From Alphaproteobacteria bacterium (GTDB taxonomy: Bacteria; Pseudomonadota; Alphaproteobacteria; RF32; CAG-239), in NCBI GenBank assembly GCA_028706255.1, contig JAQWBS010000001.1, positions 23,617 through 87,616 of the forward strand: 64,000 bases of DNA, given 5' to 3'. Position numbers and translations under genes: made by a program. This document shows, one piece after another, positions 3,079 through 51,568 of this stretch; the stretch's first letter is position 1; the number at the start of each line of letters is the position of its first letter. The notes beneath the pieces are model-generated. The model did no database searches. It was given only the letters and a program-made list of their open reading frames with translations, and was not told where the DNA came from.

Positions 3079-3157
3079 TTTCAACTCCTTTCTCTAAAAA
3101 AACTTCTATAAGTTTTAAACAAAATTCATCAATTAGCAAGCTCTTAGTTTTAAACCC

Positions 3158-3186
3158 AAAAAAGCGAACCGATTTCTCGATTCGCT
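3158..3186 (-). terminator. Rho-independent terminator of gene 3204-3902 (AGCGAA CCGATTTCTCGAT TCGCT plus U-run on the minus strand)
   Basis: A hairpin is immediately followed by A6 on the plus strand, which is U6 on the minus strand. Its core CGAACCGATTTCTCGATTCG is identical to the rplQ terminator at 3978-4008. Confidence 0.55.
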
Positions 3187-3203
3187 TTGAAGATAATTAA
3201 CAG

Positions 3204-3902
3204 CTAAGCTTTGTTATGTTTCTCGATAAAAGCAATAACAAGCTCCTGATTAGGAAATTTCTTTGCAGACAAAGAATAGATATCTCCTGCAGATTTCCAA
3301 TTTACAGAGCAATCTTTATACTCAAAACCAAGTTTCTCAATTAAGTCATAAAACGCATTGAAATAATTAGGTCTATTAGCTTTATATTGCTTACGCGCTT
3401 GCAACTGTAAACTTGAAACCAAATCACCAACAAGCGTATAACCCATCTCAGAAAGCCAATTAAAATGGCGAGAAGCAAAAGTGGGAATAAATGTCAGAGG
3501 AATTAATAGCCCTTCATTTATCTCCGACTTTCTAATGTCAAAAACCTTACCCTGCCAAAACAACTCAAAAGCTTTCTCCACACTAATAAACGGTGGAAAA
3601 TATTTTTGGGAAATCTCCATATGGTTATCGGGTAGCCAATCAACATGCTCAAAAGAATGACTAAAAGTTAACTCAAATTTTTTGAGTATTTCCTTAAGTT
3701 CTTTCAAACTTTTTTCACCGATGTTTCTAAACTTTAAAACATCTTCTTCGGAATACATCAATACTTCACCTAAATATGGACAATTCAAGTATCGTAAAAA
3801 ATTCAGGGTTCTTTGAGAAAGTTTTAGTTGCTCAATGGGGACGAAGTAACCAATCTTGCCTTCAAGCAAGGCTTTTTCTTCTGATAAAATCTCTTTTTTC
3901 AT
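3204..3902 (-). CDS. Stand-alone protein with two RNA polymerase alpha-subunit C-terminal-domain (alpha-CTD, HhH)-like domains
   Basis: LKLSQRTLNFLRYLNCPYLGEVLMYSEEDVLKFRNIGEKSLKELKEILKKF aligns at about 40% identity with this genome's own RpoA CTD ([51 protein letters not shown]). A second, weaker copy is NWLSEMGYTLVGDLVSS...LIEKLG. Confidence 0.55.
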   Translation of the reverse strand: MKKEILSEEKALLEGKIGYFVPIEQLKLSQRTLNFLRYLNCPYLGEVLMYSEEDVLKFRNIGEKSLKELKEILKKFELTFSHSFEHVDWLPDNHMEISQKYFPPFISVEKAFELFWQGKVFDIRKSEINEGLLIPLTFIPTFASRHFNWLSEMGYTLVGDLVSSLQLQARKQYKANRPNYFNAFYDLIEKLGFEYKDCSVNWKSAGDIYSLSAKKFPNQELVIAFIEKHNKA

Positions 3903-3977
3903 ATAATTTTATTTTAATAATACATAAATCATAGTAAATGAGATGGCAAATTATCACACTTAACAAAACCTGTCTAC

Positions 3978-4008
3978 ACAAAAAAACGAACCGATTTCTC
4001 GATTCGTT
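3978..4008 (-). terminator. Rho-independent terminator ending the alpha operon after rplQ
   Basis: AACGAA CCGATTTCTCGAT TCGTT hairpin followed by U7 on the minus strand. It is a near-identical copy of the hairpin at 3158-3186. Confidence 0.6.
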
Positions 4009-4034
4009 TCTTTTATATAAAATGTTCTAAAGAA

Positions 4035-4472
4035 CTATTCTGCTTTTGCAGCTTCCGCAGCAGCAACTTTTTCAGCAGCAACTCTAGCCAAGTCTTCAGC
4101 ACCTTTGGCAGCAACATCTCTGTCAACCAATTCAATGATTGCCATATCAGCAGCATCGCCATATCTAAAACCAGCTTTAAGAACACGAGTATAACCACCG
4201 TTACGGTCTTTATATCTTTCACCTAATGTAGAGAAAAGCTTAGACACAACTTCTTTATTACGAAGAAATGAATTTGCTCTTCTGCGACTTGCGAGGTCAC
4301 CTTTTTTTGCCAAAGTGATCATATTGTCAGCGAAAGTTCTGAGTTCTTTTGCTCTTTGCAAAGTAATTTTAATTTGTTCATGGTTCAACAAAGCAGCTGT
4401 CAAGTTTGAGAACAATGCTCTTCTTTGGCTTGTTGTCATGCTGAATTTTCTATGTTTCATTCCGTGTCTCAT
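4035..4472 (-). CDS. rplQ: 50S ribosomal protein L17
   Basis: [10 protein letters not shown]...[27 protein letters not shown] matches L17, with an Ala-rich C-terminal tail. The ATG at 4472 has an AAGGA Shine-Dalgarno sequence. Confidence 0.9.
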
Positions 4473-4612
4473 CATTTTTTCCTTTTCTCTAATGCTTTGC
4501 ATGCAAAGCGGATAATACAGACCGATACTACCCTAAAACACAAAGATATATATCGGCAAATTAAAGGTTAAATACAAAATTTAAATCTAACCTAATTTCT
4601 TAAAATTTTAAT

Positions 4613-4696
4613 AGAGGGCTATGCTACAAAGATATTTTTGAGTGAGGTGTAGAAAAACTACACGAAAGAAAAAAATATCAAGTATGATAACCCTCT
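4613..4696 (-). repeat. Copy A of an ~85-nt imperfect-palindromic intergenic element (rpoA|rplQ spacer)
   Basis: It shares the core ...TTTTTGAgtGAgGTGTAG-aaaaa-CTACACGAaaGAAAAAAA..AAGTATGAtAaCC with copies at 9421-9506 and 21788-21875. The outer stem is AGAGGG/CCCTCT. It begins 9 nt after the rpoA stop. Confidence 0.6.
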
Positions 4697-4705
4697 TGTA
4701 AAATT

Positions 4706-5713
4706 CTAGAAGTGTTCGTCAACGCGACGAATCAAATCTTCAATATTTTCAGGTGGCCAACCAACAACTTCCATGCCGAGGTGGATACCCATTTTTGTAA
4801 GAACTTCTTTGATTTCATTCAAAGATTTTCTACCAAAGTTTGGTGTTCTGAGCATTTCTGCTTCTGTTTTTTGAACCAAATCACCAATATAAACAATGTT
4901 ATCATTCTTCAAGCAATTTGCAGAACGAACAGAAAGTTCAAGCTCTTCAACTTTTTTAAGAAGATTTCTGTTAAATGGAAGTTCTTCTTTTTCTGCTTTT
5001 GTTTCAACTTCAGGTTCATCAAAGTTAATGAAAGGCTTAAGTTGATCTTGCAAAATTCTTGCTGAATATGCAATCGCATCTTCAGGCGTGATAACACCAT
5101 TTGTTTCAATTACGAGTGTGAGTTTGTCATAGTCAGTCACTTGACCAACACGAGTATTCTCAACTTTGTAAGAAACTTTTTTAACTGGAGAATAAATTGC
5201 ATCAACTGCAATCACCCCAATTGGTGCATCAGCGGCTTTGTTTTGATATGCAGGAACATAGCCTTTTCCGGTTCCGACAGTAAATTCAACATTAATTTTT
5301 GCGCCAGCGTCCAATGTGCAAATGAAATGATTAGGATTTTTGATTTCAACATCATGTCCTGTTTGAATCATTGCAGCGGTAACTTCGCATGGACCTTCTG
5401 CTTTAAGGCTCATTGTTTTTGTGCCTTCGCCTTCAACGGCAACAGCCAAACCTTTAATGTTTAAAATAATGTCTGTAACATCTTCTTTAACACCTGGGAT
5501 TACAGTGAACTCATGCAAAACACCGTCAATTTTGACAGCTGTTACAGCGCCACCTTGCAAAGAAGAAAGTAAAACTCTTCTCAATGCATTACCCAAAGTT
5601 AGACCAAAACCTCTCTCAAGAGGCTCGACTACTATTTTAGCTCTGCTTGCACTTTCGTTAACAACGTCTAAATTAGTAGGTTTAATAAGTTCTTGCCAAT
5701 TCTTTTGAATCAC
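4706..5713 (-). CDS. rpoA: DNA-directed RNA polymerase subunit alpha
   Basis: Full-length alpha subunit with NTD and CTD ([20 protein letters not shown]), in its alpha-operon position. Confidence 0.95.
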
Positions 5714-6588: not shown

Positions 6589-6775
6589 ACCAAATCTCCA
6601 TTTTCTAATATTTTACCATTTTCAAAAAGTTGATCACCACTTCTCAAAATTAAGCCGGATTATAGGCTAATATTTGTTAGTGTCAACTACCCATTTACTA
6701 AAAAAATGATTTTTTTTCATTTTTTTAAATTTTTTTTTACTTTTCCTCAAAACTCAGCATAAGTAATGAAAAACA

Positions 6776-9381: not shown

Positions 9382-9420
9382 TTTATTCACCTAATACAAA
9401 CATTTAATCAATGGGTTAGA

Positions 9421-9506
9421 TAAAGTGGCGTGCTACGAAGCAAATTTTTGACGACGTGTATTCTTAACTACACGAGGAAAAAATTTACAAGTATGACACC
9501 ACTTTA
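9421..9506 (-). repeat. Copy B of the ~85-nt imperfect-palindromic element (rpmD|rplO spacer)
   Basis: TAAAGTGGcgtgCTACGaagcaaaTTTTTGACGAcGTGTAttcttaacTACACGAGGAAAAAAtTTacAAGTATGACACCACTTTA. The perfect 8-bp closing stem is TAAAGTGG/CCACTTTA. It ends 14 nt after the rpmD stop. Confidence 0.65.
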
Positions 9507-9520
9507 GCAAATCCCCCAAA

Positions 9521-21619: not shown

Positions 21620-21733
21620 AATATGATTTGTTTTAGATTAATAATTGAAAAATAGTAGTTTTATGAAAAAATCTTAACAGTTTAATTCACAAAGTCAACC
21701 ATTAAAAAATCACCAATTATTATCCATTATTAC

Positions 21734-21763
21734 AAAAAAAGAGCTCTTCAAAAGAAGGGCTCT
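21734..21763 (-). terminator. Rho-independent terminator of the str operon downstream of tuf
   Basis: AGAGCTCTTC-aaaa-GAAGgGCTCT hairpin followed by U7 on the minus strand. Confidence 0.6.
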
Positions 21764-21787
21764 TTCCTTTAACTAATTAAAGTTATA

Positions 21788-21875
21788 TAAATTGTGTGGG
21801 CTACGCCTTAAGTTTTTGACGAAGTGTACACAGAAAGTACACGAGGAAAAAACTTAAAAGTATGACACCAATTTA
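21788..21875 (-). repeat. Copy C of the ~85-nt imperfect-palindromic element, abutting the tuf stop codon
   Basis: TAAATTGtGTGggCTACGccttaagTTTTTGACGAaGTGTACacagaaaGTACACGAGGAAAAAAcTTaaAAGTATGACACCAATTTA. The closing stem is TAAATTG(t)GTG/CACCAATTTA. It ends 2 nt from the tuf stop. Confidence 0.65.
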
Positions 21876-21877
21876 GA

Positions 21878-23068
21878 TTACTTTAGAATCTTAGATACCA
21901 CACCGGCACCCACAGTTCTACCACCTTCACGGATTGCAAAACGAAGACCTTCGTCCATAGCAATTGGGTGAATGAGGTTTACTGTAATTGTTACGTTGTC
22001 TCCAGGCATTACCATTTCTGTTCCTGCTGGAAGTTCAATCGCTCCTGTTACGTCTGTTGTTCTGAAATAGAACTGTGGACGATAGTTACCGAAGAATGGC
22101 GTATGACGTCCACCTTCATCTTTGTTCAAGATATAGCATTCGCCATTGAAGCTTGTGTGTGGTGTGATTGAACCAGGAGCCGCTAATACTTGTCCACGTT
22201 CAACATCTTCTCTCTTCGTTCCACGAAGCAATACACCTACGTTATCACCTGCTTGACCACTATCCAACAATTTACGGAACATTTCAACGCCTGTACATGT
22301 TGTCTTAGCTGTTGGTTTAATGCCCACGATTTCCATTTCGTCACCAACTTTAATAACACCACGTTCTACACGACCTGTTACCACTGTTCCACGGCCTGAA
22401 ATTGAAAATACGTCTTCAATTGGCATCAAGAATGGTTTGTCAACTGCTCTTTCTGGTTGTGGAATATAAGCATCTACTGCATCCATCAAAGCAATAATTG
22501 CTTTCTTACCGATTTCTTCGTTGCTGTCTTCCAATGCTGCCAAAGCTGAACCTTTTACAATCGGAATTTCATCGCCAGGGAATTCGTATGAACTTAACAA
22601 ATCTCTGATTTCCATTTCAACGAGTTCCAACAATTCTTCATCATCAACTTGGTCTACTTTGTTCATAAATACTACCAAAGCTGGTACGCCTACTTGACGT
22701 GCCAACAAAATGTGTTCACGTGTTTGTGGCATTGGACCATCTGCTGATGATACCACCAAAATTGCACCATCCATTTGTGCCGCACCTGTAATCATATTCT
22801 TTACATAGTCAGCGTGGCCTGGGCAGTCTACGTGTGCATAGTGACGAGCCTTTGTTTCATATTCTACGTGTGACGTTGAAATCGTGATACCACGTGCTCT
22901 TTCTTCTGGTGCTTTATCAATATTTGCATAGTCTACAAATGCACCGCCGCCTTGTTCCGCCATAATCTTTGTAATTGCCGCTGTCAATGTCGTCTTACCA
23001 TGATCAACGTGACCAATCGTGCCAATGTTACAGTGCGGTTTATTACGCTCAAATTTCTCTTTTGCCAT
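21878..23068 (-). CDS. tuf: Elongation factor Tu
   Basis: [28 protein letters not shown] is the canonical EF-Tu N-terminus. Confidence 0.97.
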
Positions 23069-23101
23069 TTTAATTTTCTCCAAAAGCAAATTGTTACATG
23101 T

Positions 23102-23122
23102 GGGGTGAGAAGTTCTCACCCC
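23102..23122 (-). other. GC-rich hairpin (GGGGTGAG-loop-CTCACCCC) in the fusA|tuf spacer
   Basis: An 8-10-bp G+C stem in an AT-rich genome with no U-run after it. It is a possible processing or stability element or a weak attenuator. Confidence 0.35.
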
Positions 23123-45277: not shown

Positions 45278-48200
45278 CTAAAAATTATATCTAATCGTCA
45301 AATAAAGTTGATCATCGGAATACCCTGAACGGCTATCTCTTGCATAACCAAAGTTTAACGCAAAAGGTGTATAAATGTTATTAATTTTCAAATTCATCTT
45401 ACCACGAATACTATCTCGACTATCTGGTGTTCCACTCACCGCCCATGGGCTTTCAGGACTTCCAACAAAATATGAATTAACACTCACATTTCTATCTCCA
45501 ACATTTCGTGCATATGCTAATTCAATGGCAGGCGAGAGAATAAAAGTATCAAAGACCATATTTTGAGAAAGTCTTAACCCAATTGGAAGCTCAACTGTAT
45601 TATAACTTGTTTTCTCAAAGTGACGGGCCCCGACACCTTTTTCATCATAAGCCTCAGTAAACATATAAGAATAATCAACACCGACAAAAGGCTCAATAAC
45701 ATAACGACTATTTCCCAAATCATAACCAAACTCAACATTTGAGAACAACACGCCTATATCATACTCTCCTCGGGCATTGAGACTGCTTGTTGTTAATTTC
45801 GTTTTATTGAGAATAATACCTCCACCAACGCTTCCCGTTGTATAAAGTCTTTTTGGTTTATATTTCCAATAACCTGACAATAAATATTCATCAACATCAG
45901 AGTGGCTATAAACATCACTTGCTCCTGTCCCTTCCACTTCTCCAAAAGCATAGCTAAAGGCAAGTCCTAAGGTTAAGGCATTTGGAATAATGTCATGATC
46001 ATATCCCCAAGCCAAGCTTGTTGGACGATATTCATAACCTAAACTATCCCAACGTCCTTTTTTCTCAACCCAATTTTTGCCGACATTAAACCATAAATGT
46101 TGGTCAGAAAAACCATTTAACATCCCACAACTCTGGCAATCTTTATTCTGAATGCGGGAATATATCTGACGATTAAATTGTCTAATCGTTGCTTTATGAA
46201 GCTCTTGATAAGATTTCGTATCCTCACCACCAACTGTTGCCAACTCTGATTTATATGCACTACTAACAGCCCCTGTATAATAAATATTTTCATAAACATC
46301 CCTATCTTTTTGGCTCAAATCATCACGTTTACGATAAATATCTGCAAAAGAAGACAACCCCTCATACCCTTCCAAATCTTTAACTTCAATTGAGGTTACA
46401 CCACCTTGACTTTCAACTTTAAGCAAATTATTTTCAAATCCTTCAAATTTACTATAATCCACATTGTATATATGTTGTTCTTCACCCGTTAAAGAAGAAA
46501 CATTATAAGGACGAAGCAAGGAAACGCCATTCACTGTTATGTCATTCCCAATATTCGCAATTTGACCATTTGTCACTTTTGGTTTAAAAACAGTTCCACC
46601 ATTAAAACTGATTGTTGCATTGCTTAAATCAAAAGAAAGTCTCTGTCCCAGAGGATCGTTCAAAACATCTTGCTTATTGTCAAACATGGCATAGAACGTT
46701 CCCTCTTCAATGTTTAATTCTCCACCGTATGCACTATTATCTCCCCAAAGAGATAAAGTTCCCTCTCCTATCTTATTAATTTCTCCATAAGCGCCAAAAG
46801 ACCCATCATCATTTCCACTTCTTAATGGATCCCAAATATTGATTGAAGATTGAGCGATTGAATTCAGGTTAACAACTCCCCCATTCCCCAAAAAGATTGA
46901 TTCCAATTTCTTCTCTTCTTGTGCAGTATCAGCATTCGTGATGATATAATTATTTGCAATGAAAATATTCTTCTTAGATTCTGTTGTTGCAATCGTGACA
47001 GCACCAGAATATGCATTATAAATCGCACCTCCTAAAGCAACATCATTGGCAGATTTTGCATAATTTCCAACAATATCCCCTGATAAGATGATTATACCAC
47101 CAAATGCGTTATAAATCGCTCCACCATAAGCACCTGTTTCCCCAAAAACATAATTTTGTACAAAATCTCCAGAAAGAGATGAGAATTGAGAACCACCTAT
47201 ATTATAGATTCCTCCGCCGGATGACGTAGCCATGATGGATTTTGCATAATTTTCAGTAACATCTCCAGATAAAGTAATTATACTACCAGATGCATTATAA
47301 ATCGCTCCACCATAAACACTTGTTTGACCCCAAACATAATTACGCACGAAATCCCCAGAAAGGGATGAGAATTGAGAACCAGATGCATTATAGACTGCTC
47401 CGCCATACGACGTAGCAGTAGCAGATTTTGCATAATTTTCTACCATATTTCCAGATATAGTTATTATACCGCTATTATCATTATAAATTGCCCCTCCACT
47501 AGCATCTGTCTGAGCAGAAGCATAGTTTCTATAAAAATAGCCTACATTATTCATTCTAGATGAAGAAGTGACGTAAATCGCCCCACCCCTCGCCCAATCA
47601 GAACTTGAAAAAGCATAATTTTCAATAAAACTACTTTCTAAACTATTCAAAATAGATGTATTCTCAGCATAAATTGCCCCTCCAGAAGCTTGTTCATAAG
47701 CAAAAACATAATTACCCTTGAAATCTCCAGAAAGGGAATCAATTTTCCCAGCATCCACATAGATTGCCCCACCCTGCGCATTATCTGAGCTTGAAATGGC
47801 ATAATTTTCAAAAAAAGCTCCATTCAGCTGAGTAATTCTCGTACTATTATACATTCCAATTGCCCCACCAGCAACCTCTTCAACTCCAGAAACATAATTT
47901 TGAATAAAATTGCTTTTAACGCTATCTAAAAGCGTGCCGTTCCCAAGAACTTGAATAGCCCCTGAATAAGCACTATCGGAAGAAGATGTCGCAGAGTTTC
48001 CAATAAAATCTCCCTCAATCTCAGAAATAGTTGAGTCATAACCTTGAAAGATTGCCCCACCATATGCTTTTCCATAAGCTTCCACATTATTTTTTATAAA
48101 ATTTCCTTTAATAGATTTAATTTTTCCATATTGATTATAAATCGCCCCGCCTTGACCAACACCAGAGAAAGAAATTGCGGAATTTCCAATAAAATCGCCG

Positions 48201-49072
48201 CTAAGATCCATAATATTATATGCTTCAAGTCCTAAATGGTTATTATAAATTGCGCCACCAAGAGCATTACTAGATGCCTTTACATAGTTTCCGATAAAAC
48301 TTCCTTGAATATCTCCAAAATAACTATAAGTACCAAACAAAGCTCCTCCGAGAGCCTCACTTGATGTTGAAACAACATAATTTCCAATAAAATCACCTGT
48401 TATTGACCCAAGATTATGATTTGCATAACCACTGTAAATTGCACCACCCCTCCCTGAATTAACACCATCTACGTAATTTCCGATAAAATTTCCAGTAATA
48501 CTCTCAATCTTATGTCCTCCGGTTGCAATGTTATTCGAAACATAAATTGCACCACCAAACCCAGATACATGATTACCTATAAAATCTCCAATAATATTAC
48601 CTATTTCCGTTACTGATGTAGAAGGATAACCAACAAAAATAGCACCCCCATCTTCATCATAATTTCCTAAAAAATCAGAAGTAATATTACCAACATCACC
48701 ACCGAGAGTGTTTGTAATGGCTCTTCCACCGGCATAACTTTCAGAGGTATAAGCCTCAACAAAATGACCATCAACGGAATTTACATTTCCCGCACTATTA
48801 GTAATTGGAGCTTGACTAACCACGTCAGGCTTAATTGAGACTGTATATTTATAGAATTTTTTTTGGTATTCCCCATTTGAATCTTTTTCAAAAGTGGAGA
48901 AATCTGCATTACTTTCATCTGTTGCTTCATAGATTAAAACATAGGCACTCTCAGCACTTAGGTGATCTAATGTGGGGGTATAGGTGCTGAAATCAACAAC
49001 AGCATAGGCTCTTGATGAAGACACAAAAGCTATGAGAGGGAGGAGGAGGAGAAATCTAAACTTACTGTTCAT
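45278..49072 (-). CDS. Pmp-like (polymorphic-membrane-protein-type) autotransporter, 1264 aa
   Basis: The signal peptide is MNSKFRFLLLLPLIAFVSSSRAYA. The passenger has about 18 GGA[IV] and about 15 F/V-x-x-N-[YH] motifs in 25-30-aa repeats. The C-terminal ~290 aa form a beta-barrel domain ending ...LYLTIRYNF (terminal aromatic). The start is the ATG at 49072. Confidence 0.85.
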   Translation of the reverse strand: MNSKFRFLLLLPLIAFVSSSRAYAVVDFSTYTPTLDHLSAESAYVLIYEATDESNADFSTFEKDSNGEYQKKFYKYTVSIKPDVVSQAPITNSAGNVNSVDGHFVEAYTSESYAGGRAITNTLGGDVGNITSDFLGNYDEDGGAIFVGYPSTSVTEIGNIIGDFIGNHVSGFGGAIYVSNNIATGGHKIESITGNFIGNYVDGVNSGRGGAIYSGYANHNLGSITGDFIGNYVVSTSSEALGGALFGTYSYFGDIQGSFIGNYVKASSNALGGAIYNNHLGLEAYNIMDLSGDFIGNSAISFSGVGQGGAIYNQYGKIKSIKGNFIKNNVEAYGKAYGGAIFQGYDSTISEIEGDFIGNSATSSSDSAYSGAIQVLGNGTLLDSVKSNFIQNYVSGVEEVAGGAIGMYNSTRITQLNGAFFENYAISSSDNAQGGAIYVDAGKIDSLSGDFKGNYVFAYEQASGGAIYAENTSILNSLESSFIENYAFSSSDWARGGAIYVTSSSRMNNVGYFYRNYASAQTDASGGAIYNDNSGIITISGNMVENYAKSATATSYGGAVYNASGSQFSSLSGDFVRNYVWGQTSVYGGAIYNASGSIITLSGDVTENYAKSIMATSSGGGIYNIGGSQFSSLSGDFVQNYVFGETGAYGGAIYNAFGGIIILSGDIVGNYAKSANDVALGGAIYNAYSGAVTIATTESKKNIFIANNYIITNADTAQEEKKLESIFLGNGGVVNLNSIAQSSINIWDPLRSGNDDGSFGAYGEINKIGEGTLSLWGDNSAYGGELNIEEGTFYAMFDNKQDVLNDPLGQRLSFDLSNATISFNGGTVFKPKVTNGQIANIGNDITVNGVSLLRPYNVSSLTGEEQHIYNVDYSKFEGFENNLLKVESQGGVTSIEVKDLEGYEGLSSFADIYRKRDDLSQKDRDVYENIYYTGAVSSAYKSELATVGGEDTKSYQELHKATIRQFNRQIYSRIQNKDCQSCGMLNGFSDQHLWFNVGKNWVEKKGRWDSLGYEYRPTSLAWGYDHDIIPNALTLGLAFSYAFGEVEGTGASDVYSHSDVDEYLLSGYWKYKPKRLYTTGSVGGGIILNKTKLTTSSLNARGEYDIGVLFSNVEFGYDLGNSRYVIEPFVGVDYSYMFTEAYDEKGVGARHFEKTSYNTVELPIGLRLSQNMVFDTFILSPAIELAYARNVGDRNVSVNSYFVGSPESPWAVSGTPDSRDSIRGKMNLKINNIYTPFALNFGYARDSRSGYSDDQLYLTIRYNF
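47008..48673 (-). repeat. Coding repeat region of the autotransporter passenger (GDFIGNY...GGAIY units)
   Basis: A regular alternation of FxxN and GGAI motifs is seen in the translation. The coordinates are approximate. Confidence 0.6.
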
Positions 49073-49188
49073 AAGACAACATCCTGTATTAATAATTTGA
49101 AAGAATATAACATTATTATCACATAAATTTAATAAATATTCAATTAATAATCTTTCTCTCTCCACTAAGAATGTATAATATAGTATAC

Positions 49189-49234: not shown

Positions 49235-50410
49235 TTAAGCTAATCTAACTGTTTCCATAGCAATTACTAATTCTTCATCTGTCGGAATGACAAAGGCACG
49301 AACTTTCGACCCTACTTTTGAAATTTCATTCACGAATCCACGTTGTGAATTTTTCTCATTGTCAATTTCAATACCAAGATAAGCCAATTTTTCTAAAACG
49401 AGTTTACGAACAAGTGAAGAATTTTCACCAACCCCTGCCGTGAACACGAGTGCATCCAGCCCACCCATTGCTGCTGTGTATGAGCCGATATATTTAACGA
49501 TATTATAAATATAAACTTGCATTGCCTTAACCACTTTTTCTTCGCCACGTTCATAAGCTGCTTCAAAATCTCTGGAATCACTATATCCAGTTAAACCAGA
49601 TTTACCACTTTGCTTATTCATCAAGTCGTTAATTTCATCAGCAGAATAGCCTTCCATTTTCATCAAATAAACTGGAATATATGGATCAATATCACCACAA
49701 CGAGTGTCCATTACAATACCAGCAAGAGGGGTCATGCCCATTGAGGTATCAACACATTGACCATCTTTAACCGCTGTAATTGAAGCCCCGCTTCCGATAT
49801 GACAAGTGATAACTTTGCTCTTTTCACCAACAAGTTTACAAGCTTGTTGAGAAACATACATATGAGAAGTTCCGTGGAAGCCATAACGACGAATTTGATG
49901 TTTTTCAATCAATTCTTCTGGTAAAGCATAAGTATAAGCTTCATAAGGCATTGTTTGGTGGAAGGAAGTGTCAAAAACCAAAACTTGGCGAATTTGTGGC
50001 AAAACTTCCTTAACCGCACGAATTACAAGGGCTGCCGGACCATTATGTAAAGGGGCGAGAACAGCTAAGTCTTCAACTTTTTTAATATTTTCTTCTGTTG
50101 CCAAAGCTGAAGATTTGAAATATGCTCCACCTTGCACAATTCTTTGACCAATTGCGGAAATCTCGTCCAAATTTCCAATAATTCCATCAAGAAGAATTTT
50201 CAAAATTGCTTCCAAAGCATCTTTATGAGACTTTAATTCCACTGAAACATCTTTGCTGTTGCCATTGAACTTAACACTTACAAAAGAAGCATCACGATTA
50301 ATACGTTCCGCATTTCCCTTTGCAACAACATTATATTTTTCACCCTCAACTTGAAAAAGTTGATATTTCAACGTAGATGAACCAGAGTTCAGAACAAGAA
50401 TTTTTTTCAT
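49235..50410 (-). CDS. ackA: Acetate kinase
   Basis: MKKILVLNSGSSTLKYQLF is the acetate/propionate kinase N-terminus. Confidence 0.95.
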   Translation of the reverse strand: MKKILVLNSGSSTLKYQLFQVEGEKYNVVAKGNAERINRDASFVSVKFNGNSKDVSVELKSHKDALEAILKILLDGIIGNLDEISAIGQRIVQGGAYFKSSALATEENIKKVEDLAVLAPLHNGPAALVIRAVKEVLPQIRQVLVFDTSFHQTMPYEAYTYALPEELIEKHQIRRYGFHGTSHMYVSQQACKLVGEKSKVITCHIGSGASITAVKDGQCVDTSMGMTPLAGIVMDTRCGDIDPYIPVYLMKMEGYSADEINDLMNKQSGKSGLTGYSDSRDFEAAYERGEEKVVKAMQVYIYNIVKYIGSYTAAMGGLDALVFTAGVGENSSLVRKLVLEKLAYLGIEIDNEKNSQRGFVNEISKVGSKVRAFVIPTDEELVIAMETVRLA

Positions 50411-50563
50411 TTTTATATTTTTCCTATTTTTTATTTTTTTACTATCTAACGAGATAAACAACCAAATAACTTATTATGTGAGAAGAGAACGAAGAGCGTT
50501 TTGAACGACGCTTACAATTAGCTAAGCGAGAAAAAACGCTCAAGTTATATTCCACAGAATGAG

Positions 50564-51568
50564 TTATTTTACGGCTTGAAGAGCAGTAATCGCAATAACC
50601 CCCACAATGTCTTCTGCAAAAGCACCACGTGACAAGTCGTTGATTGGTGCGTTTAAACCTTGAAGCATTGGACCATAAGCTTCGCAATTACCTAAACGTT
50701 GCAAAAGTTTGTAACCAATATTTCCGGCATTTAAGTCTGGGAAAATGAGCGTATTTGCACGTCCGCCAACTTTGCTTTGTGGAGCTTTCTTGGTTGCAAC
50801 AACAACATCCAAAGCTGTGTCTGCCTGCATTTCACCATCAAGCAAAATATTTTTGCTTTTAAATTCGTCTGCTTCTAGCATTTCTTTAGCAATTTTAGCT
50901 GCTTCACGCACTTTATCAACCCCTTCCCCAACACCTGAGCCGAAAGAAGAATATGAAAGCATTGCAATTCTTGGATCAATGCCAAATTGCATCACACTTT
51001 CTGCCGTTGAAATGGCGATGTCAGCCAGTTCTTGTGAAGTTGGATTAATATTAATTGCACAATCAGAGAAGAAATATTGCTTTCCACCTGAAATCATAAT
51101 CAAGAAAGAAGAAACTGTTCTGCCTTTTTTTGCAGATTTAATAATTTGTAAAGCAGGACGAACGGTGTCAGCTGTTGAGTGATTCGCACCACTGACCATT
51201 CCGTCAGCATCGCCAGCTTTCACCATCAATGTTCCGAAATAGTTATATTTCAAAGCTGTTTGCTTGGCTTGTTCTTCAGTCATACCTTTCTCTTTACGAA
51301 GGTCATAAAGTAACTTTGTATATTCTTCCAACTTTTCGGATTCTTCAGGCTTAATAATGGTAATTCCATCTAGATTCCAATTATTATCATCAAAATAGTG
51401 CTTAATTTCTTTATAATCACCTAAAACAATAATTTTAGCTGCTTTTTCCTTATTAATAATGTTTGCTGCACGCAAAACACGGGGATCTTCTCCCTCAGGA
51501 AGAACAATGGTTTTATAGTGAGGTCTGGCTTTATCAACCAACCCCTTCAAATATTGACTTTCAATCAT
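50564..51568 (-). CDS. pta: Phosphate acetyltransferase (short, PTA_PTB-domain-only form)
   Basis: 334-aa Pta-type sequence (VSGANHSTADTVRPALQII) upstream of ackA. Confidence 0.9.
   Translation of the reverse strand: MIESQYLKGLVDKARPHYKTIVLPEGEDPRVLRAANIINKEKAAKIIVLGDYKEIKHYFDDNNWNLDGITIIKPEESEKLEEYTKLLYDLRKEKGMTEEQAKQTALKYNYFGTLMVKAGDADGMVSGANHSTADTVRPALQIIKSAKKGRTVSSFLIMISGGKQYFFSDCAININPTSQELADIAISTAESVMQFGIDPRIAMLSYSSFGSGVGEGVDKVREAAKIAKEMLEADEFKSKNILLDGEMQADTALDVVVATKKAPQSKVGGRANTLIFPDLNAGNIGYKLLQRLGNCEAYGPMLQGLNAPINDLSRGAFAEDIVGVIAITALQAVK

What the first reader, a model, noticed from the sequence alone, without database searches (positions are those of the whole stretch)
4613..4696. 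Copy A of the palindromic element separates rpoA from rplQ by 233 nt
rpoA and rplQ are usually almost contiguous. Here an element copy with a perfect inner hairpin (GTGTAG-aaaaa-CTACAC) and outer stem AGAGGG/CCCTCT sits 9 nt after the rpoA stop. It could decouple rplQ expression or mark a processing site.
Basis: seen in the sequence. Interest (0 to 1): 0.6.

Follow-up and report, generated by a model that had tools for sequence, protein, structure and literature searches.

The report
Stop-codon-hugging hairpin repeat in gut Alphaproteobacteria
The sequence between rpoA and rplQ is one of four copies in this window of an uncatalogued ~100-nt hairpin repeat that sits just after the stop codons of many genes, several of them translation or central-metabolism genes, in uncultured gut Alphaproteobacteria; it most likely acts in the mRNA like the REP/ERIC repeats of enterobacteria.

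Summary
The stems, the coordinates, the 9-nt distance from the rpoA stop and the ~230-nt spacer are all as described. The element is larger than reported: a 97-nt core (4606-4702, minus strand) and a 115-nt imperfect hairpin (4597-4711) whose basal helix pairs the rpoA stop codon.

The window holds four copies, all in gene sense: after rpoA, rpmD, tuf and pta. A covariance model finds 89 distinct versions, all in gut or rumen Alphaproteobacteria contigs. None turned up in phage or plasmid records, no viral pattern hit passed the model, and Rfam 15 has no match. Of 30 modelled base pairs, 23 show compensatory changes, while the internal loops are conserved.

About 28 upstream gene families carry the element in sense orientation, usually within 0-13 nt of the stop codon. 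Two loci carry it antisense. Arrays of 2-3 copies in the same orientation occur.

Relatives with 85-89% identical RpoA lack copy A, yet their rpoA-rplQ spacers are still 174-465 nt and contain terminator-like hairpins. The element therefore does not create the gap.

Best reading: a new family of transcribed palindromic repeats that protects the upstream mRNA 3' end or attenuates read-through. The function is inferred, not shown.

The parts
4597..4711 (-). Copy A, full extended hairpin (115 nt). Its basal helix pairs the last rpoA codon and the stop codon UAG (4706-4708) with sequence 3' of the core.
   Evidence: Fold -37.6 kcal/mol, z -9.4. The helix base lies upstream of the stop codon.
4606..4702 (-). 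Copy A, 97-nt conserved core as matched by the covariance model (helices P2-P5 and the conserved internal loops).
   Evidence: 89.2 bits (R1) and 80.7 bits (R2); the opposite strand scores only 25-27 bits.
4647..4663 (-).
4706..5713 (-). rpoA, the gene upstream of copy A.
   Evidence: Translation; exact protein on a public contig with RNA_pol_A Pfam domains.
4035..4475 (-). rplQ (L17), the gene downstream of copy A.
   Evidence: Pfam Ribosomal_L17, 132 bits.
4565..4593 (-). Small AT-rich hairpin with a T-rich tail just 3' of copy A, a possible weak terminator or attenuator. L002 differs here on both arms and by an 8-nt deletion, yet its version still reads as a hairpin.
   Evidence: z -2.3, weak.
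4494..4509 (-). Small hairpin GCUUUGC-NN-GCAAAGC just upstream of the rplQ ribosome-binding region. It is conserved in relatives that lack copy A and is not part of the element.
   Evidence: L134 and L136, and L137 with changes on both arms. No Rfam match.
9415..9511 (-). Copy B, between rpmD (L30, 9521-9706) and rplO (L15, 8923-9390).
   Evidence: 96.7 bits; Pfam for both neighbours; fold with flanks z -5.5.
21782..21880 (-). Copy C. Its first 3 nt are the tuf stop codon (tuf is 21878-23119). An intrinsic terminator follows at about 21733-21768.
   Evidence: 82.3 bits; Pfam EF-Tu; terminator hairpin plus U7, -18.9 kcal/mol, z -3.95.
50468..50564 (-). Copy D, a diverged copy between pta (50564-51568) and ackA (ORF 49235-50461, likely ATG near 50409). 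Its terminal stem is GCUUA/UAAGC instead of GUGUA/UACAC, changed on both sides.
   Evidence: 45.7 bits (R1) and 59.2 bits (R2); Pfam PTA_PTB and Acetate_kinase; fold z -6.2.

Best explanation
Copy A belongs to a previously uncatalogued family of dispersed, transcribed, imperfect-palindrome repeats. The core is about 97 nt and the full hairpin about 113 nt. The family is confined, as far as sampled, to a clade of uncultured gut and rumen Alphaproteobacteria.

Shown: the element is almost always in the same orientation as the upstream gene and starts within a few nucleotides of its stop codon. It folds into a rod-like hairpin of five stacked helices separated by small, sequence-conserved, pyrimidine-rich internal loops. 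The basal helix usually includes the stop codon.

Inferred: it works in the mRNA as a 3'-UTR or intercistronic hairpin, as REP, ERIC and Correia repeats do. The terminating ribosome opens the base of the helix, which then refolds. The hairpin blocks 3'-to-5' exonucleases, and perhaps serves as an RNase III or RNase E processing site, so the upstream cistron is stabilised. Read-through into the downstream gene may be attenuated.

At rpoA-rplQ, copy A would reinforce a decoupling that already exists in this clade through a terminator-like hairpin and an rplQ-proximal hairpin. It is an add-on acquired in the lineage of the window and L002, not the cause of the gap.

The family spreads occasionally, by transposition or gene conversion. 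Old copies are kept in place with compensatory substitutions, which argues for selection on the fold.
For: Structure:
- All three high-scoring copies fold as long hairpins with z from -5.4 to -9.3.
- On 81 distinct sequences, 93% of cells pair and 23 of 30 pairs have changes on both sides. None of 500 shuffles reach this, and slid controls give 33-57% pairing (smaller set).
- Unpaired positions such as CAUACUUG, UUUUU, GUGUA/UACAC, CG.UCAAAA and CG(U/C)AGC are conserved.

Strand:
- Model scores are 80-105 bits on the gene-sense strand and 20-37 bits on the other.
- Inner helices contain 94 G.U pairs against 31 A.C mismatches.

Position:
- 101 against 10 nearest upstream ORFs are co-oriented.
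- In most of the 51 distinct contexts a long co-oriented ORF ends -8 to +13 nt from the core.
- About 28 upstream gene families are in sense and 2 loci are antisense.
- The stop codon lies inside the predicted helix in 48 of 54 contexts. Pairing between the upstream and downstream flanks averages 9.4 pairs against 5.8 with swapped flanks (p = 4e-6).
- Distance to the downstream gene is variable, from about 0 to 983 nt.

Context:
- The element sits between adjacent same-strand genes: rpmD-rplO, rplA-rplJ, rplJ-rplL, pta-ackA and rpoA-rplQ.
- It also lies in front of canonical terminators, as at tuf, so it is not the operon's own terminator.

Evolution:
- Copies at rplA, rplJ, rpmD and ychF cluster by locus across contigs and differ by compensatory changes.
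- Presence varies among relatives.
- Near-identical copies occur at different loci of one MAG: 98% between the adhE and tuf copies.

Precedent:
- REPs lie less than 20 bp from the 3' end of the upstream ORF, at variable distance from the downstream ORF, and can supply its stop codon (PMC3733652).
- REP325 both stabilises the upstream mRNA and attenuates read-through (bioRxiv 10.64898/2026.03.23.713779).
- ERIC can create an RNase E site (PMC3184786).
Against: - No expression, end-mapping or nuclease data exist for these uncultured organisms, so the RNA-level role is inferred only.
- Two loci carry the element antisense to both neighbours (L003/L049 upstream of typA; L008/L067 after yidD). There it would not be in the mRNA.
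- GC skew indicates that the minus strand of the window is the leading strand. In this window, sense orientation cannot be separated from orientation relative to replication.
- A plain exonuclease barrier does not explain why the internal-loop sequences are conserved.
- A hairpin this close to a stop codon reduces expression in E. coli (Liang, Rudd and Deutscher 2015; cited from memory). That sits oddly with genes expected to be highly expressed.
- The G.U to A.C ratio of 3:1 was counted on an alignment fitted to the sense-strand model and leans that way.
Confidence: 0.55

Rival explanations
1. It is selfish mobile DNA: a MITE-like or foldback element with no host function. It would be moved in trans by an unidentified transposase or spread by recombination. 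Copies would survive only where they are harmless, just after stop codons and in the orientation whose transcript folds neatly.
For: - It has an imperfect-palindrome body with conserved ends (TTTGCTAAAG ... CTTTATCAAA).
- Presence and absence differ among close relatives, including an empty 3-nt rpmD-rplO junction in L135 and a copy at rplO-secY instead.
- The adhE and tuf copies within one MAG are 98% identical.
- Copy number varies in tandem arrays.
- Rare antisense copies exist.
- One copy looks recombinant (L075) and one has a perfectly self-complementary outer arm (L086).
Against: - No target-site duplication was seen at the ends.
- Part of the outer stem (the middle of P2 and the basal extension) varies between copies, although the extreme ends are conserved.
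- Copies at the same locus in different lineages have diverged by compensatory changes with 93% pairing retained. Decaying junk would not do this.
- No transposase was found, but only fragments of these genomes are held.
Confidence: 0.2
2. It is a specific protein-binding RNA site: a dedicated cis-regulator recognised through its conserved internal loops. The partner could be an RNA chaperone, a ProQ/FinO-like protein, a ribosomal protein or a termination factor. It would coordinate expression of translation and central-metabolism genes, or control termination and ribosome recycling at the clamped stop codon.
For: - Internal-loop sequences are conserved across host species while the stems covary.
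- Translation and glycolysis genes are prominent upstream, though no enrichment test was run: rpoA, tuf, L1, L10, L15, L19, L25, L30, YchF, AspRS, Pyk, Pfk, PpdK, Pta and AdhE.
- The stop codon is systematically included in the basal helix.
Against: - The element is also found after mutL, recR, ruvC, dnaA, rlmH, membrane proteins and transporters.
- No candidate partner gene is linked to it.
- Tandem arrays and antisense copies are unusual for a dedicated regulator.
- Conservation could reflect shared descent plus gene conversion.
Confidence: 0.12
3. It is a terminator-like repeat, comparable to pneumococcal SPRITE. The GC-rich outer stem, flanked by AAA on the 5' side and UUUAUC on the 3' side, would act as a weak intrinsic terminator or attenuator whose loop has been expanded by the conserved core.
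For: - In relatives, the same positions hold canonical intrinsic terminators: after rpoA in L134, L136 and L137, and after rplO in L134 and L136.
- The outer stem of the main subtype reads A-tract / GC stem / UUUAUC.
- Tandem copies would add up.
Against: - The U-tract is short (3-5 U in 8), and the terminator scan does not call any copy.
- The rplJ-rplL subtype has the opposite polarity, U-rich on the 5' side and A-rich on the 3' side.
- It lies between genes that are co-transcribed in well-studied bacteria (rplJ-rplL).
- Copy C is followed 14 nt later by a canonical terminator. The rplA copies are followed by a GC-rich hairpin.
Confidence: 0.08
4. It is a DNA-level element: a cruciform or protein-binding site, for example for gyrase, IHF or another nucleoid protein, placed downstream of heavily transcribed genes. 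Its orientation would be set by replication.
For: REP/BIME elements have been reported to bind several proteins, including IHF (PMC2817692, PMC3479197); gyrase binding is recalled from memory. All four window copies are on the inferred leading strand. Two antisense loci exist.
Against: - G.U pairs outnumber A.C mismatches 3:1 on the sense strand.
- The tight, one-sided link to the upstream stop codon and the pairing with the end of the coding sequence have no obvious DNA-level rationale.
Confidence: 0.05

Closest known systems
REP / BIME elements (GTAG- and CGTC-tagged repetitive extragenic palindromes; PMC3733652, PMC2817692)
   Same: It is an intergenic, transcribed palindromic repeat. It lies close to the 3' end of the upstream ORF and at variable distance from the downstream ORF, and it sometimes supplies the stop codon. 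Families are lineage-specific and copies cluster locally. The proposed role as mRNA stabiliser and attenuator is the same (10.64898/2026.03.23.713779).
   Different: It is three to four times longer (97-115 nt against 20-40 bp). It is one long multi-helix hairpin, not a short GC-rich stem-loop, and its halves do not fold on their own. GTAG and CGTC tetranucleotides occur only inside the hairpin, not as an unpaired end tag. Arrays are head-to-tail in one orientation rather than alternating or head-to-head. Orientation relative to the gene is nearly fixed. No RAYT gene is known for it.
ERIC (IRU) sequences of Enterobacteriaceae and Vibrio
   Same: It is a palindrome of about 100-130 nt that folds into a long hairpin RNA. 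It lies in transcribed intergenic regions, often inside operons. Copies are kept at orthologous sites with variable occupancy. ERIC is reported to affect upstream mRNA stability through RNase E (PMC3184786).
   Different: There is no evident sequence similarity (ERIC consensus recalled from memory, no alignment made; ERIC is probably not an Rfam family, so searches do not bear on it). ERIC occurs in both orientations and has TA-flanked terminal repeats with target duplications. Here orientation is about 28:2 in sense, no duplication was seen, and the stop codon is in the helix.
Correia / NEMIS elements of Neisseria, RUP and BOX of pneumococcus (MITE class)
   Same: The size is similar (100-160 nt). 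These elements also form long hairpins, are co-transcribed with neighbouring genes, and differ in presence between strains. Correia hairpins are cut by RNase III (from memory: De Gregorio et al. 2002-2003).
   Different: Those elements have conserved terminal inverted repeats, TA target duplications, an IHF site and promoters, and they insert in both orientations. This element shows no target duplication or known transposase, and part of its outer stem varies between copies while the core is the best-conserved part.
RNase III processing hairpins between phage T7 early genes (R1-R5)
   Same: They are intercistronic hairpins with conserved internal loops, repeated along a transcript, in sense orientation only. 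After cleavage they leave a protective 3' hairpin on the upstream message (established knowledge, from memory).
   Different: That system is a phage one, with shorter hairpins of about 50-60 nt and no homology to this element. Cleavage has not been tested here.
[quoted passage not shown]
   Same: It is a repeat family that looks like, and may replace, transcription terminators at gene ends.
   Different: No convincing U-tract is present here. Canonical terminators follow some copies, and other copies lie between genes that are co-transcribed in well-studied bacteria.

Membership tests
REP (GTAG/CGTC-tagged) / REPIN | The unit is a 20-40 bp palindrome forming one short stem-loop; REPINs and dimers are two such units in inverted orientation. 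| tested here: not met
   The core is 97 nt. The 5' and 3' halves fold no better than shuffles (-5.1 against -4.8 and -3.6 against -4.05 kcal/mol), while the whole folds at -30.5 against -15.6.
REP (GTAG/CGTC-tagged) / REPIN | An unpaired GTAG or CGTC tag at one end of the palindrome. | tested here: not met
   CG(U/C)AGC and CGUCG motifs are conserved but lie inside the long hairpin, partly paired in P3 and at the P5 base. They are not at an end.
REP (GTAG/CGTC-tagged) / REPIN | [quoted passage not shown] | tested here: met
   Gaps are -8 to +13 nt in most contexts. In several contexts the ORF stops inside the element's 5' arm (L043, L061, L064, L069, L106 and window C).
REP (GTAG/CGTC-tagged) / REPIN | A RAYT (tyrosine HUH transposase) in the same genome. 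| not testable with these tools
   Only a 64-kb window and loci of up to 21 kb are held; no whole genome of the clade can be scanned.
MITE (ERIC, Correia, RUP type) | Short (under about 400 bp), non-coding, and able to fold into a long hairpin. | tested here: met
   No ORF spans the element beyond the last few codons of the upstream gene.
MITE (ERIC, Correia, RUP type) | Conserved terminal inverted repeats flanked by a direct target-site duplication. | tested here: inconclusive
   The ends TTTGCTAAAG / CTTTATCAAA are conserved in the main subtype, but pairing continues into locus-specific flanks. No direct duplication is visible at 83 copies or at the two near-identical copies in L011 and L012. 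No clean filled-versus-empty pair with alignable flanks was available.
MITE (ERIC, Correia, RUP type) | Presence/absence polymorphism between related genomes. | tested here: met
   Copy A occurs only in the window and L002. rpmD-rplO is filled in the window, L136, L005, L017 and L092 and empty in L135. rplO-secY is filled only in L135.
MITE (ERIC, Correia, RUP type) | A parent IS or transposase with matching ends. | not tested
   No transposase gene was looked for. No similar DNA was found in the plasmid or phage collections.
Intrinsic (Rho-independent) terminator | A GC-rich stem followed directly by a U-tract. | tested here: inconclusive
   The outer stem ends in CUUUAUC (3-5 U in 8). The scan calls none of the copies. 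Canonical terminators exist elsewhere in the window (3161-3188, about 3976-4009, about 21733-21768) and one follows copy C.
Any Rfam 15 family | A match at or near the curated gathering score. | tested here: not met
   No hit in the window at gathering threshold. No hit with E<=1 in L011 and L012, which hold six copies. Only chance-level hits with E>=0.4 in the spacer.
Ribosomal-protein leader (r-leader) | Lies in the 5' UTR of the regulated r-protein gene at a fixed distance from its start, and is specific to one operon. | tested here: not met
   The element is anchored to the upstream stop codon, not the downstream start (about 0-983 nt away). It also follows many non-ribosomal genes.

The most novel reading that the evidence does not exclude
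The element is not just another REP-like repeat. It would be a distinct class of structured 3'-UTR RNA that clamps the stop codon of many housekeeping genes, several of them expected to be highly expressed, in a basal helix. A dedicated factor would read it through its conserved pyrimidine-rich internal loops. The cell would gain a shared post-transcriptional or termination-coupled handle on translation and central-metabolism operons, for example by controlling ribosome release or recycling, operon polarity, or site-specific RNase III processing.
Probability: 0.12. Interest if true: 0.8.

Novelty: new variant of a known kind. Interest (0 to 1): 0.45.

Why it matters
Dispersed palindromic repeats are common, but their functions are still debated even in E. 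coli. This family has an unusually clean signature. It shows strong covariation, conserved loops, a nearly fixed sense orientation, a helix that swallows the stop codon, and natural variation between strains (0, 1, 2 or 3 copies at the same site).

That variation makes it a good natural experiment. Public gut metatranscriptomes could show whether such hairpins stabilise the upstream message, attenuate the downstream one, or are processed.

It also matters for annotation. Intergenic gaps in the ribosomal-protein operons of these poorly known gut Alphaproteobacteria are not empty. The repeats may also cause chimeric joins in assemblies or real rearrangements; one copy (L075) looks recombinant, but this was not tested.

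Tried and rejected
- Rfam (four searches): no family matched. tRNA/tmRNA scan: nothing in the window.
- Promoter reading: the consensus scan gives one weak 9-of-12 match that overlaps the element, no more than shuffles give. Its -10 position falls in non-conserved sequence. Rejected.
- Canonical terminator: not called by the scan.
- First genome pattern: it required a 5-nt gap before TCAAAA and so missed the window's own copies B and C. It was corrected for the metagenome scan.
- Pattern hits outside the clade: the Chitinophagaceae and Alteromonas hits were judged chance matches by eye, since their flanks do not form the hairpin. The model found nothing convincing in the freshwater, marine and viral hits: none in the viral contigs, and only weak partial matches of 24-37 bits in four other contigs.
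- Phage or plasmid origin: no blastn hits.
- REP-dimer / REPIN idea: the halves do not fold alone.
- Integron attC idea (structure-defined hairpin after each ORF): rejected on context, since these are core housekeeping operons with no cassette array, and the ends do not resemble R''/R' boxes by eye.
- Idea that the core inserted into the loops of pre-existing terminator hairpins: attractive because relatives have terminators at the same sites. It could not be tested because the outer stems of copy A and the relatives' hairpins are not alignable.
- Target-site duplication: none found.
- Window versus L002 spacer alignment: too similar to compare constraint on the element with constraint on the rest of the spacer.
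- L17 r-leader: the small rplQ-proximal hairpin was not matched by any Rfam model.

Full report
**Observation**

All genes around the finding are on the minus strand. rpoA is 4706-5713. The identical protein is on a public Logan contig with the same gene order, and the same protein is also recorded from an NCBI MAG labelled Alphaproteobacteria bacterium. rplQ is 4035-4475 (Pfam Ribosomal_L17).

On the coding strand the outer stem begins 9 nt after the rpoA stop codon, and the spacer is 230-233 nt. The 17-nt inner hairpin alone is not beyond chance, since 22 of 100 shuffles give a match with up to 3 mismatches. The whole element is: it folds at -30.3 kcal/mol with z = -9.3.

The element is bigger than reported. 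With its flanks it forms a 115-nt hairpin (4597-4711, -37.6 kcal/mol, z = -9.4) whose basal helix pairs the last rpoA codon and the UAG stop with sequence beyond the core.

**Copies in the window**

The repeat search and a hand alignment found two further copies. A covariance model built from 13 sequences (R1), run with filters off, finds exactly four copies in 64 kb. A broader model (R2) confirms them.

| Copy | Coordinates (minus strand) | Position |
|---|---|---|
| A | 4606-4702 | rpoA to rplQ |
| B | 9415-9511 | rpmD to rplO |
| C | 21782-21880 | first 3 nt are the tuf stop codon; an intrinsic terminator follows |
| D | 50468-50564 | pta to ackA; terminal stem changed on both sides to GCUUA/UAAGC |

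Neighbour identities come from Pfam. All four copies are in gene sense. The reverse strand scores 17-37 bits against 46-97 bits, so the element is asymmetric and its orientation is well defined.

**Family and distribution**

A pattern scan of one genome per species gave 12 hits. Ten were in MAGs labelled uncultured Alphaproteobacteria from human, mouse, roe deer and reindeer gut. The other two, Chitinophagaceae and Alteromonas, do not form the hairpin and were judged chance matches by eye.

The model confirms 133 hits, which are 89 distinct sequences, mostly on contigs labelled human gut plus JGI and ENA contigs I take to be gut or rumen.

The model finds nothing convincing in the freshwater, marine or viral pattern hits. 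None of the viral contigs passes, and four other contigs give only weak partial matches of 24-37 bits. blastn finds nothing in the plasmid or phage collections. Rfam 15 has no matching family.

Three subtypes are visible. All share the inner core: CUUG-NNN-UUUUUUC-NCU-YGUGUA-loop-UACACG-NCG-YUCAAAA.

**Structure**

On 81 distinct sequences the modelled structure pairs 93.1% of cells. Of 30 pairs, 23 have changes on both sides, in 392 cells. None of 500 column shuffles reaches any of the measures, and sliding the partners by 1-3 columns drops pairing to 33-57%. The hand-aligned 13-sequence set gives the same picture.

Small internal loops separate five helices, and their sequences are conserved. 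The two halves have no structure of their own. The element is therefore one long rod, not a dimer of small REP hairpins.

G.U pairs outnumber A.C mismatches by 94 to 31 in the inner helices. This favours folding of the gene-sense strand as RNA, with the caveat that the alignment was fitted to that strand.

**Genomic position**

The nearest upstream ORF is co-oriented in 101 cases against 10, and several of the 10 are spurious antisense ORFs. In most of the 51 distinct upstream contexts a long co-oriented ORF stops between -8 and +13 nt of the core. Most of the rest are second or third copies of arrays, copies behind the 60-aa rpmD, or copies behind a terminator.

Upstream genes fall into three groups (some were identified from their sequence only):
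- Translation and transcription: rpoA, tuf, rplA, rplJ, rpmD, rplO, rplS, rplY, ychF and aspS.
- Central metabolism: pyk, pfk, ppdK, pta and adhE.
- Other functions: mutL, recR, ruvC, dnaA, rlmH, transporters and membrane proteins.

By locus family this is about 28 in sense and 2 antisense. The antisense loci are upstream of typA in L003/L049 and after yidD in L008/L067.

With 30-nt flanks the predicted helix encloses the stop codon in 48 of 54 contexts, and the median hairpin spans 113 nt. Pairing between the 20 nt upstream and the 20 nt downstream of the core averages 9.4 pairs against 5.8 when upstream flanks are swapped between loci (p = 4e-6). In several loci the ORF ends at a TAA or TAG inside the element's own 5' arm.

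Distance to the downstream gene varies widely. Arrays of two or three copies in the same orientation occur, for example L124, L037, L052, L011, L012 and L003.

**Relatives and the rpoA-rplQ spacer**

RpoA is 85-95% identical across many members of this clade. L002 (95% RpoA identity) has copy A at the same place, and the element is 96% identical.

Four other relatives (85-89% RpoA identity) have no copy after rpoA. Their spacers are nevertheless long:

| Locus | rpoA-rplQ spacer | Hairpin directly after rpoA |
|---|---|---|
| L134 | 465 nt | canonical terminator, GGGGAAGCC...GGUUUCCCC plus a run of U |
| L135 | 174 nt | long hairpin followed by a T-rich stretch |
| L136 | 229 nt | terminator-like hairpin |
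| L137 | 195 nt | terminator-like hairpin |

Three of them, and the window, share a small hairpin just upstream of the rplQ ribosome-binding region. An L17 leader upstream of rplQ has been predicted for Alphaproteobacteria (PMC7247131), although no Rfam model matches here.

The gap between rpoA and rplQ is therefore a property of the clade. Copy A adds about 100 nt to it and is followed by its own small hairpin with a T-rich tail.

Occupancy differs at other sites too. L136 has a copy at rpmD-rplO. L135 has only 3 nt there and carries a copy at rplO-secY instead. L134 and L136 have canonical terminators at rplO-secY.

**Evolutionary pattern**

Copies at rplA, rplJ, rpmD and ychF cluster by locus across contigs and differ by compensatory changes. 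This indicates long residence under selection for the fold. Some copies at different loci of one MAG are nearly identical (adhE.1 against tuf.1, 98%), and the window's copies B and C are among each other's closest matches (77%, with B equally close to L006's rplA copy). This indicates occasional spread or gene conversion.

**Mechanism**

Shown:
- A conserved, covarying, sense-oriented hairpin anchored at stop codons, often between adjacent same-strand genes or in front of canonical terminators.

Inferred:
- The element acts in the mRNA as a 3'-UTR or intercistronic hairpin. It would protect the upstream cistron from 3' exonucleases, may be cut by RNase III or RNase E, and may attenuate read-through.

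This is the behaviour documented or proposed for REP (PMC3733652; 10.64898/2026.03.23.713779) and ERIC (PMC3184786). REPs are likewise close to the upstream ORF and can supply its stop codon.

Points that do not fit neatly:
- The conserved loop sequences.
- The two antisense loci.
- The window's GC skew, which puts all four copies on the leading strand, so replication orientation cannot be excluded here.

Rivals are a selfish MITE-like element, a specific protein-binding regulator, a terminator-like repeat and a DNA-level site. They are listed with their tests in the rival explanations.

**Membership and novelty**

The element fails the defining features of REP/REPIN: unit size, self-folding halves and an end tag. 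It lacks the target duplication and fixed terminal repeats expected of ERIC- or Correia-type MITEs, and it matches no Rfam family.

It works like those elements but is not a member of any of them. Its strict polarity, stop-codon clamp and conserved internal loops set it apart. I therefore rate it a new variant of a known kind, of moderate interest.

Noticed in passing
window 3204-3902 (-): A 232-aa ORF directly downstream of rplQ and its terminator carries an N-terminal RNA polymerase alpha C-terminal domain (Pfam PF03118, 62.7 bits). It is a stand-alone alpha-CTD paralogue next to rpoA-rplQ. The relatives L134-L137 have unrelated genes at this position.
   Followed up: partly
window 4494-4509 (-); also L134, L136, L137 just upstream of rplQ: A small hairpin (GCUUUGC-NN-GCAAAGC) followed by AGAGAAAAGGA lies about 20 nt before the rplQ start. 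L137 keeps it with changes on both arms. It may be an rplQ (L17) leader, but no Rfam model matches it.
   Followed up: partly
window 3154-3187 and 3976-4009 (-): Two 91%-identical intrinsic terminators (CGAAUCGAGAAAUCGGUUCG plus a run of U) follow rplQ and the alpha-CTD ORF. This looks like a duplicated terminator.
   Followed up: no
L134 11008-11060 and 6690-6750; L136 6770-6830: Relatives have canonical intrinsic terminators directly after rpoA and between rplO and secY. Both positions lie inside these operons as they are organised in E. coli (from memory).
   Followed up: partly
L137 4852-4990; L135 11023-11112: Other long hairpins with a similar build (a U-run/A-run stem around a 6-bp terminal hairpin) follow tuf and rpoA in relatives. 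They score only 18-19 bits with the model and may be distant or decayed relatives of the element.
   Followed up: no
L086 1823-1918 and L075 3559-3655: In one copy the outer 3' arm is the perfect complement of the 5' arm. Another copy is a chimera of the pyk-type 5' half and the ychF-type 3' half, joining pyk to the gene that normally follows ychF. These are either recombination at the repeats or assembly chimeras.
   Followed up: no
window 47009-48400, inside ORF 45278-49165 (-): Tandem 186-nt repeats at 62-83% identity lie inside a 1295-aa ORF, giving a repetitive protein.
   Followed up: no
window 6659-6686 (-): A perfect sigma-70 consensus promoter (TTGACA-16-TATAAT) lies upstream of rpsM and is likely the promoter of the rpsM-rpsK-rpoA unit.
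   Followed up: no
window 1-64000: No tRNA gene occurs in 64 kb. GC skew is negative on the plus strand almost throughout, so the minus strand, which carries the ribosomal-protein operons and all four element copies, is probably the leading strand.
   Followed up: no
L138, L143-L146, L022, L028, L035 and others: The core search pattern also hits a 42-nt stretch that recurs in freshwater metagenome contigs and in large viral contigs. The model does not match it, so it is a separate conserved sequence of unknown nature.
   Followed up: no
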